From Eledone cirrhosa (lineage: Eukaryota): a stretch of 64,000 bases of DNA. Of the stretch, positions 13,760 through 63,156 are shown piece after piece (position 1 is the stretch's first letter; each line of letters opens with the position of its first letter). Under the pieces are notes generated by a model, which worked only from the letters and a program-made list of their open reading frames with translations, was not told the DNA's origin and ran no database searches. The stretch is from the NCBI GenBank assembly GCA_964016885.1, contig OZ024742.1, forward strand, positions 247,938,001 to 248,002,000, in the 5' to 3' direction. Made by a program: the position numbers and the translations under genes.

Positions 13760-16700
13760 CCTAAAGCCACTCCACCACAAGAACAACAGCAACAAACAAT
13801 ATCAAGAAACAGCATGACAATCAATGAAATAGCAACAACCACTATGACAATCACGATCATCACAAAGTTAACCAAGGTAACAACCACCACTTCTTCAACT
13901 ACCACAATAACAGCAATTAGCATTTAGACCAGCACCATAATTACCACAACAATAGTTACAATATTACTACGACAATCGCCATTATAACAAACATCAACCA
14001 CACAACAACAACCACTACTGCCACAGTTACCACCATAAAACAATCACCACCCAAAATGATTAACACAGGCAGCACAACAAAACAACAACCACCACAACAG
14101 TTACTATTTAATTAAACGCCACCGCCGCAACAAAAACTACAATAACCAATGCTACAACTCCCACCAACACCACTACCACAAGGACATTAATAGCTAGTAC
14201 CATCTAATCCATTACCAGCAGCAGCACAACACCGAAAATACAACAACAACCAACACAACAGTCACCATTCGATCAAACGCCACCACCACAACAAAAACCA
14301 CAATAACCGAGGCTACAACCTCCATTACAATTACCACAAGGTCATTAACAACAATGACCATTACATCCACTACCACCAGCATCACAACAGTAGTAAGCCT
14401 TCGATCAAACAACAGCGCTACAACAACATTCACCATTCAATCAACCACCAGCATCACAACAATAGTAAGCCTTAGATCAACCACCAGCACTACAACAACA
14501 TTCACCATTCAATCAACCACCAGCATCACAACAATAGTAAGCCTTCGATCAACCACCAGCACTACAACAACATTCACCATTCAATCAACCACCAGCATCA
14601 CAACAATAGTAAGCCTTCGATCAGCCACAAGCACCACAACAACAGTCACCATTCGATGAACCATCAGTGCCACAACTAGACATAATAAGCAACACTTCAA
14701 CTCACAACAAGAGCATTAACAACAATCACAAGTACAACCACTACCACCAGCACCACAACAACAGTCACCATTCTATCAACTAACAACGGTACAACAGCAC
14801 CAGACATAATGACCAACACTACAACTCAAATCACCGCAAGAACAATATCATTATAACCACTATCACCAGAAGCACAACAACAGTCAGGATTCGATCAACC
14901 CACAGCACCACTACAACAATAACCATTACAACCACTACCACAAACGCCACAACAATAGTTAGCATTCGATCAACTAACACCACCACAACAACACATAATA
15001 AACAAAACTACAACACACCATCACAACATCAAGAGCATTGACAACAATCACCATTACAGCCATTACCACCAGCACCACAACAACAACCAACACCACGACG
15101 ACTACCACCAACAACACAACAACAGTCACCATTACAGCCATTACCACCAGCACCACAACACCAATCAACACGACAACGACTACTACCAACAACACAACAA
15201 CAGTCACCATTACAGCCATTACAACCAGCACCACAACAACAATCAACACCACAACGACTACCACCAACAACACAACAATAGTCACCATTACAGCCATTAC
15301 CACCAGCACCACAACAACAATCAACACCACAATGACTACAACCAACAACACAACAACAGTCACCGTTACAGCCATTACCACCAGCACCACAACAACAATC
15401 AACACCACAACGACTACAACCAACAACACAACAACAGTCACCAGTACAGCCATTACCACCAGCACCACAACAACAATCAACACCACAACGACTACAACCA
15501 ACAACACAACAACAGTCACCATTACAGCCATTACCACCAGCACCACAACAACAATCAACACCACAACGGCTTCCACCAACATCACAACAACAGTCACCAT
15601 TACAGCCATTACCACCAGCACCACAACAACAATCAACACCACAATGACTACCACCAACAACACAACAACAGTCACCATTACAGCCATTACCACCAGCACC
15701 ACAACAACAATCAACACCACAACGACTACAACCAACAACACAACAACAGTCACCATTACAGCCATTACCACCAGCACCACAACAACAATCAACACCACAA
15801 CGACTACAACCAACAACACAACAACAGTCACCATTACAGCCATTACCACCAGCACCACAACTACAATCAACACCACAACGACTACCACCAACAACACAAC
15901 AACAATCACCATTACAGCCATTACCACCAGCACCACAACAACAATCAACACCACAACTACAATCAACACCATAACGACCACCACCAACAACACAACAACA
16001 ATCACCATTACAGCCATTACCACCAGCACCACAACTACAATCAACACCACAACCACAATCAACACCACAACGACTACCACCAACAACACAACAACAGTCA
16101 CCATTACAGCCATTACCACCAGCACCACAACAACAATCAACACCACAACGACCACCACCAACAACACAACAACAGTCATCATTACAGCCATTACTACCAG
16201 CACCACAACAACACCAACACCACAACGACTACAACCAACAACACAACAACAGTCACCATTACAACCAGCACCACAACAACAATCAACACCACAACGACTT
16301 CCACCAACAACACAACAACAGTCACCATTACAGCCATTACCACCAGCACCACAACAACAATCAACACCACAACGACCACCACCAACAACACAACAACAGT
16401 CATCATTACAGCCATTACTACCAGCACCACAACAACACCAACACCACAACGACTACCACCATCAACACAACAACAGTCACCATTACAACCAGCACCACAA
16501 CAACAATCAACACCACAACGACTTCCACCAACAACACAACAACAGTCACCATTACAGCCATTACCACCAGCACCACAACAACAATCAACACCACAACGAC
16601 TTCCACCAACAACACAACAACAGTCACCATTACAGCCATTACCACCAGCACCACAACAACAATCAACACCACAACGACTACCACCAACAACACAACAACA

Positions 16701-18840
16701 TTCACCATTACAGCCATTACCACCAGCACCACAACAACAATCAACACCACAACGACTTCCACCAACAACACAACAACAGTCACCATTACAGCCATTACCA
16801 CCAGCACCACAACAACAATCAACACCACAACGACTACCACCAACAACACAACAACATTCACCATTACAGCCATTACCACCAGCACCACAACAACAATCAA
16901 CACCACAATGACTACCACCAACAACACAACAACAGTCACCATTACAGCCATTACCACCAGCACCACAACACCAATCAACACCACAACGACTACCACCAAC
17001 AACACAACAACAGTCACCATTACAACCATTACCACCAGCACCACAACAACAATCAACACCACAACGACTACCACCAACAACATAACAACAGTCACCATTA
17101 CAGCCATTACCACCAGCACCACAACACCAACCAACAGCACAACGACTACCACCAACAACACAACAACAGTCACCATTACAGCCATTACCACCAGCACCAC
17201 AACAACAATCAACACCACAACGACTACCACCAACAACACAACAACAGTCACCATTACAACCATTACCACCAGCACCACAACAACAATCAACACCACAATG
17301 ACTACCACCATCAACACAACAACAGTCATCATTACAACCATTACCACCAGCACCACAACAACACCAACACCACAACGACTACCACCAACAACATAACAAC
17401 AGTCACCTTTACAGCCATTACAACCAGCACCACAACAACACCAACACCACAACGACTACCACCAACAACATAACAACAGTCACCTTTACAGCCATTACTA
17501 CCAGCACCACAACAACACCAACACCACAACGACTACCACCAACAACACAACAACAGTCACCATTACAGCCATTACAACCACTACCACAACAACAAGAACA
17601 TTTACAACAATCAACATCACGACCATTTCCACTAGCACCACAACAACGGTCACCATTCGATCAACCACTAGCGCCACAACAGACATAATAACGAACACTA
17701 CAACTCCCACCACCACTTCAACAAGAACATTAACAACAATCATCATCACAACCACTTCCACCAGCATCACAACAACAACATTCACCATTCAATCAACCAC
17801 CACCAGCACCACAACAACAACAACATACATAATAACCAACACTCCAAATCCCTCCACTACCACCACCATAACAAGAACATTAACAACAATCACCATTACA
17901 ACAACTACACCCAGCACCACAACAGTTATCAGTCACCATCACAACCACTACCACCAGCACTACAACATCAGTTACCATTCAATCAACTAACATCACCACA
18001 ACAACCACAACAGACACAACAACCAACACTACCACTCTCAACACCACCACCACAACAACATTAACAACAATCACCATCACAACACTACCACCAGCACTAC
18101 AACAACAGTTACCAATGAATCAACTAACATCACCACAACAACAACAACAGACACAACAACCAACACTACCACTCTCAACACCACCACCACAACAACATTA
18201 ACAACAATCACCATCACAACACTACCACCAGCACTACAACAACAGTTACCAATGAATCAACTAACATCACCACAACAACAACAACAGACACAATAACCAA
18301 CACTACCACTCCCACCACCACCACCACCACAACATTAACAACAACCACCATCACAACCACTACCACCAGCACTACAACAACAGTTACCAATGAATCAACT
18401 AACATCACCACAACAACCACAACAGACACAACAACCAACACTACCACTCCCACCACCACCACCACCACCACAACAACATTAACAACAATCACCATCACAA
18501 CCACTACCACCAGCACCACAACAACAGTTACCATTCAATCAACTAACATCACCACTCCCACCACCACCACCACAACAACATTAACAACAACCACCATCAC
18601 AACCACTACCATCAGCACTACAACAACAGTTACCATTCAATCAACTAACATCACCACTCCCACCACCACCACCACCACCACCACAACAACATTAACAACA
18701 ACCACCATCACAACCACTACCATCAGCACTACAACAACAGTTACCATTCAATCAACTAACATCACCACTCCCACCACCACCACCACAACAACATTAACAA
18801 CAACCACCATCACAACCACTACCATCAGCACTACAACATC
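13760..18840. repeat. ACA/ACC-rich minisatellite region: 72-bp unit (~14390-14660) and 78-bp unit (~15040-17580)
   Basis: The 78-bp unit accaccaacaacacaacaacagtcaccattacagccattaccaccagcaccacaacaacaatcaacaccacaacgact is repeated about 30 times. Confidence 0.9.
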
Positions 18841-19492
18841 ACACCCGGCATGTTCTTACTCTTTAATCATGACGAAATTTGCTGGCAAAACAATCAAACA
18901 AAAAGAAGTAAGTACATAAAAACAAAAGCAACAGCAATAACAGCAATGACAACAACAACAACAACAACAATGACAGCATGATTAAAAAGTGAACGCAAAT
19001 ATATAAATAAAACAATGCATCTCTCTCTTTCTCTTTCGTGCTTGCTCACACTCTGTCTATATGTGTGTGTACGTGTGAATGTATGCGTGTGCGCGTGTGT
19101 GTGAGAATGCGCGTGTGAGTATGTGTGTGCCTGTGTGTATGTGTGTATGTATGAGTATATGTATGTGTGTGAGTGTGAAGGTGAGGGCGTGCGTGTGTAT
19201 GTGCGTGTATATATGTATGTGTGAGTATATGTATGTGTTAGTATGTATGTGAGTATGTATGTATGTGTGAGTATATGTGTGTTTGAGTGCGTGTGTATGT
19301 CTGTAGGTATGTATGTGTGAGTTCGGGCGCGAGTGTGTGTGTGGTTGGTAATGGTGGAAGCAACGATGAAAATGCTTTGCTAACTCAAATGAACACGGAA
19401 ACAAATGAAGAATTTGGGAAAAATAACAACACTAATAAATAAGTAACAACAAAAACACTTCAACCGCATAAAAAATAAAAATAATGTTAAAA

Positions 19493-41856: not shown

Positions 41857-41918
<62 letters not shown>

Positions 41919-41935
41919 TCAGGTTTGAGGTTCAC

Positions 41936-41983
<48 letters not shown>

Positions 41984-54005: not shown

Positions 54006-55080
54006 TAGTCTCAACTTCTTCATGATGTATTTATCACTCTTTTCTTTCATTTGTACCTTTATATATATATATATATAAGTTTATATACACAATATATATA
54101 ATATATATATATATATACATAATATATATATATATATATATATACACATGTATACAAAATATATATATATTCAATAGAAGCACAAGCGCATGATATATAT
54201 ATATAAGTTAAAACAATGCAATAAAACATCAAGTCATTAGAGATATACTTCACTGCTTTACGATCGTTTCTAGATGGTGATAATACATTGTATCTATACT
54301 CAGTTATATAGCAGATAGAGAGAATATTTACATACATGCATATCACCTGCTGTTTTCAAAATGAAAAATAATTTTATTCAATAATAATTTTACTCAGAAT
54401 TAGTATCATGTCCATATTTGGAGGTAGTTGAAGAACTAACGAATCAAATTGTTTTATCATATGGTGTTAAGATGAAAAGTAATACACTTTAGTTCAGGTC
54501 ATGACCCTTTGAAAGGAATGGTTGAGAGTAGAAATGACATACAAATCTATTAGGAAGGAAGGGGATTGTCAAACTGATAGTTGAATGTATCTTGTATAGT
54601 GAATTTAAAAGGAATGTCAAAATAAATGGTGATTAGTGTTGTATTGAGTTTTAAGGTGAATATAAATTAATGTTATGGTTAGGAAAGATATTATATTAAA
54701 AGATGAAAATTATAATAAGACAATGAGATATAGTAATGCGATAATATACAACTTAACCAACACAATCTAGTACGGTGTGGTAAATTGCACTCAGTATAAT
54801 ATAACATTATATGTTCTAAAATATTACTAAGTATGTTTATGCATAAACAATCAAACTCAGATAAGTACATGTTGGCATAGTTAAAACACATAAATTTCAT
54901 AGTCTACAAAGTGCCTATATTCACACTACATGTAGAGAGAGGTACAGTTATATTGATATCTGACCAATATATACATGCGTGCAAATAGATGCAAACCTAA
55001 ATACACATCCACACGCATGCTTATAATCATATATATACATATCCATACACATCTATACCCCCATATATACATATACACAT

Positions 55081-55135
<55 letters not shown>

Positions 55136-55254
55136 TATACATATATATATACACACACACACATACATACATGCATATATACACATGTAAATACATATAT
55201 ACACACACATACATACATACATACACATATACACACATGTATATGTATATATAC

Positions 55255-55294
<40 letters not shown>

Positions 55295-55304
55295 CCATAT
55301 ACAA

Positions 55305-55342
<38 letters not shown>

Positions 55343-55450
55343 CATACACACACTTGTGTGAGTAAATGTACACTCCTCTTACATGTGCACATACTCATAT
55401 ATAAACATTCATACACCTATACTCACATATACACACACACAAACATACAC

Positions 55451-55507
<57 letters not shown>

Positions 55508-57365: not shown

Positions 57366-57434
57366 ATTTTATCTGATGAAAACACAAATGTTATTGCATG
57401 ATGATATTCGTTTTTGAAATGCGCATAATAAAAT
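57366..57434 (+). ncRNA. Type-I hammerhead ribozyme
   Basis: ATTTTAT-CTGATGA-long stem II (AAAC..AATGTTAT/ATGATATT..GTTT)-GAAA-TGCGCA-TA-ATAAAAT. Confidence 0.85.
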
Positions 57435-57463: not shown

Positions 57464-57515
<52 letters not shown>

Positions 57516-57724
57516 TGTGTGTGTGTATATGTGTGTATAGGTGTATGAATGTGTATATATGAGTACGTGCACATGTATGAGGAGTGTACATATACTTACT
57601 CACACAAGTGTGTGTATATATATATATGTGTATGTGTGTGTGTTGTATATGTGTATATATATATATATTTATATAAATGAAATAACAGGAGGCTGGACTG
57701 GTGTAAATCATTGAAAGATTTATT

Positions 57725-57782
57725 ATACTATGATCATTTCAATGAACGGGTTCCATATGAATCCGGTGATATCATCAGGTAT
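57725..57782 (-). ncRNA. Type-I hammerhead ribozyme
   Basis: ATAC-CTGATGA-tATcACCGGATTC..GAACCCGTTCATt-GAAA-TGATCA-TA-GTAT. Confidence 0.75.
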
Positions 57783-57973
57783 TGGAATATAACAAAGGAA
57801 TATGTAAAAAGCCATGGGTCCGAACAATCAGAGACAGAGGGAACGGCTGACCGACTAGCCCAGCGCTCAGCCAATCGCCCTCAAAGTGTTGGCAACCGAA
57901 AAACTACCAATGGATATCTGGTGAGGGGGCGAAGGCTTACAATGTGCTACCACTACTCCGTCAAAGTAGAAGG

Positions 57974-58006
<33 letters not shown>

Positions 58007-59556
58007 GGAGAAAGAAGTGTAGTGTAAGGGTCAAACTACATTCATGTTAGAAAATGCCGCGAAAAAATGCTACCCAAAGAATCCATAATGTGTGTCTGTA
58101 TGGTCTAATGTGTGAACCGAAGATTGGAACGTTAAATTTATGTTGCAAGTTATAGGATGAAATTAAATTAAATTAAAAATATTAAATTGCAAAATGGTAA
58201 ATTGAAAAATAGAGGTAGCGAGATTTATTTATTTAATGAAATTACGGAGAGAGTCTTATATGAAAACAAAATGTTTAGATATTAGGATGGGATATAGAGT
58301 AAAGATTTCGATTGGGAGACCCAGCCAGCACACCTACCACCATGAGTCAGCCAGTCTCGAGTGGTATCGTCAAGCGAAAGAAATGGAAATTAATTTTTCC
58401 GAGTACTCTAGGAACGTAGCTAACTTTGGCCCCGGGATCGCTAGCGGGAACTTCACAATTTCGACAGGCCATCGTCTATACCACGAATACTATTAAATCA
58501 CACATTAGGGGTTTATTCCCGTGTCAGTGGAGGCATGACATAGCTAATAGTCATGCCCAAACATGCCAACCGCTCCGATTAATTTCATTTACCGAAAGAG
58601 GAGAAATTTATTTTTCCGAGCACTCAAGGAAGGCTGAACTTTCCGAGTGCCCAGCGCGCAGCCGGGAAAGGTCACCGCACAAGTCGAAGATAACAACCCA
58701 GTGAAAAGTGCAAATAGACCAAAATTATTTTAAAGTCCCAGTTAGTCCGGGTTATAGGTAGTGTGGATCTTAGGTGGGTAGGGGGCTATGAAAGGTGCAT
58801 AATGACCTGAGTAAGGAAAAGTTACCAAAAAATACTAAAAAATATGAAAAAATAATATAAAGATAGAATACATTGATGAAAATACATTAATAAAATAATA
58901 AAAAATAATAAAATATACATTAATGAGATAGAAAAAAATTAATAAAGGTAAATAAGAATCAATATAGATCAAGTTGTAGTAAGATAATACAAGTTGTACA
59001 TATAGAAATAGATATAGAGGATGGAGGAGATGGAATGGTAACAGGTTGTACCTAGTGCAAAGTTCAGTGCGAGTCACAAAAAGTCCTGAGGTATAGAGTA
59101 GAGAATTCAGTCCATACAATACATGTTTTAGTATAATACGTAGAGTTTTGTCGTAATCGGAATCATCCCGACAAGGAAAGTAGTATCAGGTGGCGGTAGA
59201 TAAGGGGCACAGCAGCCAAAATCCGTATGGTAAGTAGATCAGTTAATCCCATGCTGGTAATAGCTGTACACTGAAGTCAGTGCCGCTGTTCAATATTACA
59301 TTTTGAAGTTCTCAACATTATAGGAGCATTATTTCTTTAGGTTTGTTGGTTCACCACTGGATAGAACTGGTCATTCCGTATGTTCAATGCTGGTGTAATA
59401 TTGTGAAGAGTACTCAACGCAGTGCACTTCACCCATCTTCGTTTGTGTAGTTGGTGGTGCGAATGCGGAGTTAATTATAAATGAAATAACAGGAGGCTGG
59501 ACTGGTGTAAATCCTTCGGACCCACGGCTTTTTACATATTCCTTTGTTATATTCCA

Positions 59557-59614
59557 ATACCTGATGATATCACCGGATTCATATAGAACCCGGTCATTGA
59601 AATGAGCATAGTAT
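59557..59614 (+). ncRNA. Type-I hammerhead ribozyme
   Basis: ATAC-CTGATGA-tATcACCGGaTTC atata GAAcCCGGTcATt-GAAA-TGAGCA-TA-GTAT. Confidence 0.78.
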
Positions 59615-59916
59615 AATAAACCTTTCAAGGATTTACACCAGTCCAGCCTCCTGTTATTTCATTTATAATTAACTCCGTATTCGCACCACCAACTACACAA
59701 ATGAAGATGGGTGAACTGCATTGCGTTGAGTACTCTTCACAATATTACACCAGGATTGACCATACGGAATGACCAGTTCTATCCAGTGGTGAACCAACAG
59801 ACCTAAAGATATATATTTATATATATATGTATATACATATATATATATATTGGTAAACGGAAAAGAAAATGCTGACAAATTGTTGCAAGTGAAAAATATA
59901 TATATATGTGTATATA

Positions 59917-59952
<36 letters not shown>

Positions 59953-60064
59953 TGTATGTATGTATGTATGTATGTATGTATGTATGTATGTATGTATGTA
60001 GGTATGTATGTATGTATGTGTGTGTATATATGTATGTACATGTGTATATATGTATATATGTATG

Positions 60065-60097
<33 letters not shown>

Positions 60098-60110
60098 GTT
60101 TATATATGTG

Positions 60111-60147
<37 letters not shown>

Positions 60148-61342
60148 ATGTGTATGCGTATATGTATATATGAGGGTATAGATGTGTATGCGTGGATATA
60201 GATGTGTATCGATATGTATATATATGATTATATGCATGCGTGTGGATGTGTATTTAGGTTTGCATCTATTTGCACGTATGTATATTTTGGTCAGATATCA
60301 ATATGGTACCTCTCTCTATATGTAGTGTGAATATATGCACTTTTTAGACTATGAAATTTATGTGTTTTAAGTATGCCAACATGTACTTATCTGAGTTTGA
60401 ATGTTTATGCATAAACATACTTAGTAATATATTAGTGCGTATATGTTATATTATACTGAGTGCAATTTACCACACCGTACTATATTGTGTTGGTTAAGTT
60501 GTATATTATCGGATTACTATATCTCATTATCTTATTATAATTTTCATCTTTTAATATACTATCTTTCCTAGCCATAACATTAATTTATATTCACCTTAAA
60601 ACTCAATACAACACTAATCACCATTTATTTTGACATTCCTTTTAAATTCACTGTACAAGATACATTCAACTATCAGTTTGACAATCCCCTTCCTTCCTAA
60701 TAGATTTTTATGTCATTTCTACTCTCAACTATTCCTTTCAAAGGGTCATGACCTCAACTAAAGTGTATTACTTTTCATCTTAACACCATATGATAAAACA
60801 ATTTGATTCGTTAGTTCTTCAACTACCTCCAAATATGGACATGATACTAATTCTGAGTAAAATTATTATTGAATGAAATTAGTATTGCTTTTGAAAAGAG
60901 TTGATGATATGCATGTAAGTAAAAATTCTCTCTATCCGATAGTTTGTAAATTTACATAGATCAATAACTGAGTATAGATACAATGTATTATCACCATCTA
61001 GAAACGATCGTAAAGCAGTGAAGTGTATCTCTAATGACTTGATTTTTTATTTCATTGTTTTAACTTATATCATGATTCTGTTTTCCTTTTAATGTGTTAT
61101 TGTTTTGTGAGATTTATCTTAACCTACAACATTTTCAACATCTGGATTACATTGAGTTCTTCATACAGAATAGACCCTACAACTTACAGTGGATACCTCT
61201 GTGTGTATATATATATATATATGGTTCATTGATTACTCAATGAATCTAGTTTTACAATTGATTAAAAGCACAGTACAAAGAAGTTTTCTGGAGTTTATTC
61301 AAAATATTAGTAAATGAAGACATTCACATAATCAAAATATAT

Positions 61343-61406
61343 GTTTTATTATATATATTTCGAAGGTACTGTGCTGTTTTTTCAGTACGTCCTCTTCAGA
61401 TAAAAT
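61343..61406 (-). ncRNA. Type-I hammerhead ribozyme
   Basis: ATTTTAT-CTGAAGA-GGAcGTACTG..CAGTACcTTC-GAAA-TATATA-TA-ATAAAAC. Confidence 0.85.
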
Positions 61407-61511
61407 ACATGAGTTGATGTATGACATACCTCAACTGTCTTGATGGTACAATTGCCAATACTGGAATCGAACCATCAAGACAGTTGAGGTATTTCATACA
61501 TCAATTCATGT

Positions 61512-61576
61512 ATTTTATCTGACGAGAACGTACTGAAAAAAACAGCACAGTACCTTCGAAATATATATAATAAAAC
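61512..61576 (+). ncRNA. Type-I hammerhead ribozyme
   Basis: ATTTTAT-CTGACGA-GAAcGTACTG..CAGTACcTTC-GAAA-TATATA-TA-ATAAAAC. Confidence 0.85.
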
Positions 61577-62046
61577 ATATATTTTGATTATGTGAATATC
61601 TTCATTTATTAATATTTTGAATAATATATATATATATATAAAGTTGCCATATAAGAATCTAAATACAGTCATCTCCATTTCGCTCAATGGAAATTAGATT
61701 CGACAATATCGTATTCCAGAGACTACACATAGTATGATATTACGGCAAAAACAACGATTAAAGTTTGTTATACATATGACAAGTCAGAACATAAAATTAA
61801 TACTTACATTACTAAGTACAGATACACAGCTGTTTCAAATCATAAAGAAAAACTTATGATAATTATCATATTAAAAATACACATGATAATTAACAAATAA
61901 AAGAAATAGGTATATTTTCTTACTACTACAAAATGTAAACTATCCATTTGGATATCAGATACAAACTACCCTTGTATGTGTCATGAAATTAACGAAGTAA
62001 CATCATGCTGGAATAATGATAATAATAATAATAATAATAATAATAA

Positions 62047-62293: not shown

Positions 62294-63156
<863 letters not shown>

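What the first reader, a model, noticed from the sequence alone, without database searches (positions are those of the whole stretch)
57672..59808. Large (1.8-kb) non-coding HHR retroelement
Seen: a 1804-bp period with an HHR, no credible ORF, a GC-richer core with an internal repeat (tttttccgag(t/c)actc at ~58395 and ~58611), and an inverted HHR-bearing terminal segment. The minus-strand part runs well past the terminus of the plus-strand part. Simple cDNA snap-back cannot produce that, but two cDNAs from a circular or multimeric RNA can. The unit is much longer than the few-hundred-nt retrozymes described in animals.
Basis: partly seen in the sequence, partly recalled or inferred. Interest (0 to 1): 0.75.

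Follow-up and report, generated by a model that had tools for sequence, protein, structure and literature searches.

The report
Protein-free Hydra-Penelope hitchhiker with hammerhead
This is one copy of an abundant 1.9-kb non-coding repeat with a hammerhead-ribozyme motif, pasted into TA repeats as two back-to-back arms that end at two fixed sites; it likely borrows the enzyme of Hydra-type Penelope retrotransposons, which would copy one RNA (possibly a circle) from both cut DNA ends.

Summary
57672-59515 holds one 1804-bp unit plus 40 nt, joined head-to-head to a 293-nt inverted arm; each arm carries a hammerhead (HHR) motif. The family is abundant (4231+1231 exact HHR hits with sister families); 38 full units give a 1885-nt consensus without an ORF. 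Copies end at two fixed sites about 145 nt apart in (TA)n, and 84 of 85 resolved two-armed insertions use one site per arm. Repeats within one insertion agree at polymorphic sites (direct 583:24, inverted 447:18, random pairs 477:602), so one template was likely copied more than once: a circle fits but is not shown. The HHR has the U-U-closed core listed for Hydra-clade PLEs, and an autonomous Hydra family here has a distantly homologous end (z about 4). No helper with matching ends was found, and no RNA was tested. Verdict: a long non-autonomous Hydra-type PLE, two to three times longer than published animal retrozymes. Earlier scan notes report similar elements in this and other genomes.

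The parts
57672..59515 (-). Long arm: one full unit (1804 nt here, ~1885 nt in the family) plus 40 nt; 3' end at the first fixed terminus (T40) at 57672
59516..59808 (+). Inverted, 5'-truncated arm: HHR plus tail; 3' end at the second fixed terminus (T186); joined head-to-head at 59515/59516
57725..57782 (-). HHR motif 1 (AUAC CUGAUGA U..U GAAA UGAUCA UA GUAU); predicted cut between 57729 and 57728
   Evidence: cleavage untested
59557..59614 (+). HHR motif 2; its stem III palindrome is mutated (UGAGCA); predicted cut after 59610
59668..59808 (+). Tail: ~141-146 nt between the two fixed termini; its internal copy is 59334-59475 on the minus strand
59672..59731 (+). Predicted bulged stem (ACUC..GUUGAGU) just 3' of T40; internal copy about 59413-59471, minus strand
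   Evidence: fold; lead from earlier scan notes
59309..59328 (-). Second predicted stem (GCUC..GUUGAGC) just 3' of T186; present only in read-through copies
   Evidence: 87 of 93 matches GCUC/GAGC; shared by families A and C
57837..57882 (-). GC-rich hairpin upstream of the HHR, kept with compensating changes in family C
   Evidence: read from the printed sequences
58345..58670 (-). GC-richer core with two diverged copies of a ~110-nt module (cores 58386-58414, 58603-58631); candidate internal promoter (inference)
57662..57675 (+). Left copy of a 10-14-nt candidate target-site duplication in (TA)n; the last 4 nt overlap the element end
   Evidence: the TTT-interrupted TA motif occurs once in the empty paralogue and on both sides here
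59810..59823 (+). Right copy of the candidate target-site duplication
54201..55491 (-). Empty paralogue of the insertion site: other arm of a local inverted duplication (matches 57466-57678 and 59921-61070)

Best explanation
It is a high-copy, protein-free 1.9-kb repeat with Penelope-type ends that is likely mobilised in trans by a Hydra-clade Penelope-like element, whose enzyme would nick both strands of a (TA)n target and start one cDNA at each of two fixed internal sites on the same RNA. Shown: no ORF; two fixed 3' termini in (TA)n; one terminus per arm; variable 5' truncation; head-to-head joins; arms up to 2.3 units long; one sequence variant per insertion. Inferred: transcription from an internal promoter; recognition of two stems lying just 3' of the two start sites; twin target-primed reverse transcription with strand displacement; joining of the two truncated cDNAs. 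The template is either an HHR-cut, ligated ~1.9-kb circle (about even odds) or an uncut tandem transcript re-used by template jumping. The helper is not identified; family H10 is the nearest relative seen.
For: Termini; 67 of 67 resolved two-armed insertions were T40+T186 (27 of 94 had an unresolved end), 84 of 85 in the larger set (34 of 119 unresolved). No ORF: 38 full units, consensus 1885 nt, longest frame 104 aa; 30 of 131 read-through copies examined, all non-coding or truncated just after the motif; no tblastn hit of 58 PLE-like ORFs to the body beyond two chimeric junctions. One template: arms share 29 rare variants against 0-7 in 30 random same-family pairings, and 13 A/A and 13 C/C but no clear A/C pairs among 46 compared insertions; concordance at polymorphic sites. 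Hydra link: published Hydra HHRs have ctgatgat..tgaa cores and (TA)n targets (PMC8557442 supplement rows; section 11). H10 has DKT and CxCX5C motifs, a long-stem HHR, two termini ~130 nt apart and inverted arms ending at the opposite terminus in 3 of 3 loci seen. Its end aligns to the window arm at z 4.2-4.4, against z of 0.6 or less for four other PLE ends. Two internal RT start sites that define the tail are shown in vitro for anole Poseidon (PMC11167929).
Against: No autonomous copy with these ends was found in any locus fetched. The H10 similarity is weak: nhmmer with the family profile gave no hit, and z was only 1.7-2.4 for family C. The tail is ~145 nt, not the 30-40 nt in the papers read. 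One T40/T40 insertion exists (L008). Arm concordance could partly reflect subfamilies active at different times or gene conversion between arms. 5' ends do not pile up at the HHR cut, so HHR cleavage in vivo is not shown. The target-site duplication lies in a microsatellite.
Confidence: 0.8

Rival explanations
1. A true giant retrozyme: tandem transcripts are cut by dimeric HHRs, ligated to a ~1.9-kb circular RNA, and the circle is the obligate template, copied in rolling fashion from both nicks. This is a sub-case of the best explanation.
For: 16 of 168 arms exceed 1900 nt. Direct repeats inside an insertion are about as alike as inverted arms (3.6% vs 3.1% mismatch), and the four overlapping copies in L106 are about equally distant. 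Internal and terminal copies of the tail agree at polymorphic sites 173:20 against 83:77 at random. cDNAs pass the HHR site without stopping. The HHR fold is kept by covariation. PMC4209133 (parts 1-2 read) proposed such circles for PLEs.
Against: No RNA was tested. PLE-type minimal HHRs cleave poorly in vitro. In the anole element uncut RNA is the main substrate and HHR mutants still insert. A freshly made genomic tandem would give the same homogeneity.
Confidence: 0.45
2. The body is the long UTR or a decayed ORF of an autonomous PLE, and the copies are ordinary truncations.
For: Hydra families here have UTRs over 1 kb (H10 about 1.5 kb). In L187 a Hydra ORF runs into a family C end without a TA tract.
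Against: The unit repeats head-to-tail at ~1.9 kb with nothing between. L187 is unique: the other 39 of 40 hits leave the match at the junction. No similarity between the H10 UTR and the bodies and no protein similarity. A remote origin from a deleted PLE remains likely.
Confidence: 0.07
3. The two arms come from two independent RNA molecules held by a dimeric enzyme, not from one template.
For: The anole protein is predicted to be a dimer. 61 of 84 T186 arms run well past T40. Single joins to other PLE families exist (L041, L201).
Against: Rare variants are shared between arms and no clear A/C hybrids occur; the strict one-site-per-arm rule; 9 of 84 T186 arms stop in the 20-nt bin at T40, above neighbouring bins (weak). 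Two RNAs from the same source locus cannot be excluded.
Confidence: 0.15

Closest known systems
Hydra clade of C-terminal EN+ Penelope-like elements (Craig et al. 2021, PMC8557442; passages, section 11, supplement rows seen)
   Same: (TA)n target, HHR core with U on both sides of stem II, 5' truncation, partial tandems, inverted 5' arm, one-sided tail
   Different: No ORF; tail ~145 nt rather than 30-40 nt; no direct sequence match of six HHR or tail words in that supplement
Animal non-LTR retrozymes (Cervera and de la Pena 2020, PMC7229834, passages; Li et al. bioRxiv 10.64898/2026.07.22.740005, parts 1-3 of 5 read)
   Same: Non-coding unit with one type I HHR, tandem copies, proposed dependence on PLEs
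   Different: Unit 1.9 kb (sister family ~2.9 kb) against 51-972 bp; PLE-type rather than canonical HHR; arrays of at most ~2.3 units seen; two-armed inverted insertions; circular RNA not shown
Non-autonomous Chlamys PLEs such as MRC1 (PMC8557442, passage)
   Same: Non-coding, pseudo-LTRs, multicopy head-to-tail insertions, ends related to autonomous families
   Different: Green-algal, N-terminal-EN clade that mostly lacks HHRs; helper match here is only distant
Poseidon of Anolis carolinensis (Frangieh et al. 2024, PMC11167929; parts 1-2 of 4 read)
   Same: Two internal RT start sites downstream of the HHR define the tail; AT-rich target; sequence 3' of the start sites is needed
   Different: Autonomous, different clade, short tail; arm pairing and template identity not addressed in the parts read

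Membership tests
EN+ Penelope-like element, Hydra clade (autonomous) | Single ORF with RT and C-terminal GIY-YIG | tested here: not met
EN+ Penelope-like element, Hydra clade (autonomous) | HHR in the pseudo-LTR with ctgatgat..tgaa core | tested here: met
EN+ Penelope-like element, Hydra clade (autonomous) | (TA)n insertion preference | tested here: met
   empty paralogue
Non-autonomous PLE derivative | 5' truncation, partial tandems, inverted 5' arm, one-sided tail | tested here: met
Non-autonomous PLE derivative | Ends similar to an autonomous family in the same genome | tested here: inconclusive
   H10 end z 4.2-4.4 to family A, 1.7-2.4 to C, 2.7-3.8 to D; no nhmmer hit; no close partner found
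Non-autonomous PLE derivative | Mobilised in trans by a PLE protein | not testable with these tools
   needs an in vitro or cell assay
Animal non-LTR retrozyme | Non-coding unit with a type I HHR | tested here: met
Animal non-LTR retrozyme | At least two consecutive HHR-bearing units | tested here: met
   L106, L075, L064; L064 may be a later local duplication
Animal non-LTR retrozyme | Canonical HHR and small unit (about 200-400 nt; under 1 kb in the 2026 survey) | tested here: not met
   the survey could not see periods above 1000 bp
Animal non-LTR retrozyme | Self-cleavage and abundant circular RNA | not testable with these tools
   no RNA run available to lay

The most novel reading that the evidence does not exclude
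A clan of giant (1.9-2.9 kb) animal retrozymes that replicate as HHR-cut, ligated circular RNAs with their own duplicated internal promoter. A Hydra PLE dimer primes both target nicks on one circle, at two stem-marked sites, so every two-armed insertion records one rolling-circle event; this would explain PLE tails, inversions and pseudo-LTR renewal in one mechanism.
Probability: 0.35. Interest if true: 0.7.

Novelty: new variant of a known kind. Interest (0 to 1): 0.42.

Why it matters
How PLEs make tandem, inverted and tailed insertions is an open question. This family gives countable genomic rules: one start site per arm (84 of 85) and one template per insertion. It also gives a defined ~430-nt protein-free substrate (hairpin, HHR, tail, stem beyond it) and a candidate helper lineage for an in vitro test. 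It extends the size range of HHR-bearing non-autonomous elements in animals beyond what a 1-kb-capped survey could see. The architecture itself is published, so the gain is incremental unless the circle is shown.

Tried and rejected
Rfam at gathering score on the window: 0 hits; at E up to 10 on copy L088: six chance-level hits. MFE folding does not recover the HHR. Expression: no RNA holder listed, which says nothing either way; laying two contig runs of unknown kind (one sample) only shows that the family is present. Helper search: PLE ORFs beside copies were neighbours in TA tracts (L053; others). An HHR pattern excluding families A-C gave 2 chance hits. Family D (181 hits, 30 loci examined) had no linked ORF. 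Hydra H8 has no shared end in the flanks seen. The H10 5' end and its read-through region were not seen in the five upstream stretches fetched, so the second stem could not be compared in H10. HHR-cut 5' ends: about 3 of about 60 true ends among the first 100 of 578 listed matches lie at the cut, counted by eye; 0 of 20 rows labelled END among 30 loci: no pile-up. The regex for the first stem returned nothing, so that stem rests on folding and on reading the printed sequences. A sequence look-up in earlier scan notes found no look-alike. Paper searches listed no description of this family or of the one-site-per-arm count; subscription journals, Repbase and Dfam were not searched, and bioRxiv supplements are closed.

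Full report
Observation. The window is G000:C3:247938001-248002000 of a 3.0-Gb TA-rich animal genome. The element runs 57672-59808 between TA tracts. Read on the minus strand, 59515 to 57672 is 1844 nt whose first and last 40 nt repeat, giving the 1804-nt period. At 59515/59516 it is joined head-to-head to a 293-nt plus-strand arm that covers the HHR and runs ~141 nt beyond the point where the long arm ends. No frame exceeds 116 aa. The short internal repeat and the GC-richer core are as described. The insert lies in one arm of a local inverted duplication; the other arm (54201-55491) is an empty site, and a TTT-interrupted TA motif that occurs once there flanks the insert on both sides, a 10-14-nt candidate target-site duplication.

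Family. DNA searches gave 1750 and 1514 first-look candidates. Exact HHR patterns gave 4231 and 1231 hits with 0 control hits; these counts cover several sister families and count arms, not insertions. Thirty-eight full units (1742-2179 nt, 90-98% to consensus) give a 1885-nt unit with no frame over 104 aa; the window copy lacks ~68 nt. Sister families share the ~360-nt terminal module and both termini: B, C with a ~2.9-kb non-coding unit and an older D. A ~110-nt GC-rich module is duplicated in A and C and seen in B; an internal promoter is an inference. Thirty of 131 copies that read through past the second terminus were examined and none led into an ORF. The body is therefore not just the UTR of a coding element.

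Ribozyme. In 156 HHR-region copies the consensus is AUAC CUGAUGA U, long stem II, U GAAA UGAUCA UA GUAU. Across families stem I changes U-A to C-G, the first stem II pair is A-U, G-U or G-C, another changes G-C to A-U, and the stem III palindrome changes UGAUCA to UGUACA (the pattern fixed the core and part of stem III, and family D rows fall under 'other'). Long stem II, short stem I and palindromic stem III are the PLE minimal-HHR traits, thought to work as dimers and weak in vitro (PMC4209133). The ctgatgat..tgaa core is the usual one in the Hydra rows of File S2 of PMC8557442. Cleavage was not tested. 5' ends do not pile up at the predicted cut.

The overhang. Intact 3' ends fall at one of two sites ~145 nt apart (T40, T186), followed by (TA)n in nearly all cases. 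This is the PLE tail: an extension at one end of insertions that often carry an inverted 5'-truncated copy (PMC8557442), shown in vitro to lie between two internal RT start sites (PMC11167929). Among two-armed insertions with both ends resolved, 67 of 67 (94 examined) and 84 of 85 (119 examined, overlapping the first set) have one arm at each site. In 46 insertions with enough overlap, arms differ by 3.7% against 7.7% for same-family pairs, share 29 rare variants against 0-7 in random same-family pairings, and show no clear A/C hybrid. In family A loci (10 overlapping duplicates dropped), polymorphic sites agree 583:24 between direct repeats (515:24 without L064, whose two units are identical and may be a later duplication), 447:18 between inverted arms and 477:602 between random copies; internal and terminal tail copies agree 173:20 against 83:77. 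One template, or one source locus, was thus used for the whole insertion, and 16 of 168 arms exceed one unit. A circle explains this simply; a homogeneous tandem transcript with strand displacement or template jumping also does. Subfamily timing and gene conversion are confounders.

Helper. Many Hydra-type and other PLE ORFs occur in the fetched loci, but none carried these ends. Family H10 (409 candidates) has DKT and CxCX5C motifs, a ~1.5-kb 3' UTR, a long-stem HHR, two termini ~130 nt apart and inverted arms ending at the opposite terminus in the three loci where both were seen. Its end aligns with the window arm at z 4.2-4.4 against shuffles, while four other PLE ends give z of 0.6 or less; families C and D score lower (1.7-3.8) and nhmmer gives no hit. 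Following a lead from earlier scan notes, I found a predicted stem RCUC..GUUGAGY just 3' of each terminus in family A and a similar stem after the first terminus in H10. Sequence 3' of the start sites is required in the anole system, so these stems are candidate recognition signals (inference).

Mechanism. Shown: non-coding unit, fixed paired termini, (TA)n targeting, truncation and inversion, one variant per insertion. Inferred: internal promoter; capture of a Hydra RT-EN; nicks on both target strands; one cDNA started at each site; run-on through the HHR region, sometimes for more than one unit; joining of the truncated ends. Confidence 0.8 for the non-autonomous Hydra-type PLE; about 0.45 that the template is a circle.

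Comparison. It works like a Hydra PLE and like MRC1-type non-autonomous PLEs. It meets the non-coding and tandem criteria of animal retrozymes but not their size or canonical HHR, and circular RNA is untested. The 2026 retrozyme survey capped periods at 1000 bp, so long units were invisible to it. Earlier scan notes (unchecked AI notes) report two-armed retrozymes, Hydra ends, twin hairpins and a 2.8-kb protein-free hitchhiker in this genome; the last may be family C (not checked). Verdict: real, a long variant of a known kind; interest 0.42.

Noticed in passing
window 57369-57430 (+): Another HHR motif (long stem II, TGCGCA palindrome) from a different repeat family, 250 nt left of the element.
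   Followed up: no
window 61295-61624: 330-nt near-palindrome with an HHR-like motif on each strand, likely a two-armed end pair of another PLE-type family.
   Followed up: no
window 62327-63009: Identical 216-nt direct repeats 467 nt apart around an HHR motif near 62746; a small retrozyme-like unit.
   Followed up: no
window 41908-41944 (-): Short tail-end fragment of sister family C.
   Followed up: no
window ~1500 and ~5800 (-): GIY-YIG fragments of two other PLE families.
   Followed up: no
window 14081-18970: Long ACC/AAC-rich tandem arrays (78-bp period, 33 copies), possibly a Thr-rich coding exon.
   Followed up: no
L041 ~1500: A family A arm is joined head-to-head, without a TA tract, to a 5'-truncated GIY-YIG PLE of another family; single case.
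   Followed up: partly
L187 4530-4620 and L201 ~953: Hydra ORFs (H8, H10) joined directly to family C ends; L187 is unique among 40 hits. Template switch or later deletion.
   Followed up: partly
L314-L342: Young Hydra family H8 (98-99% identical, 1635 candidates) whose 3' end runs into over 1 kb of TA/TG repeats with no shared HHR found.
   Followed up: partly
L064 2799-6644: Two full units identical over 1260 compared sites while the terminal tail differs: recent local duplication or assembly artefact.
   Followed up: no
L028, L072, L249: H10 end arms lie within a few hundred nt of family A or B insertions; shared TA targeting may explain it.
   Followed up: no
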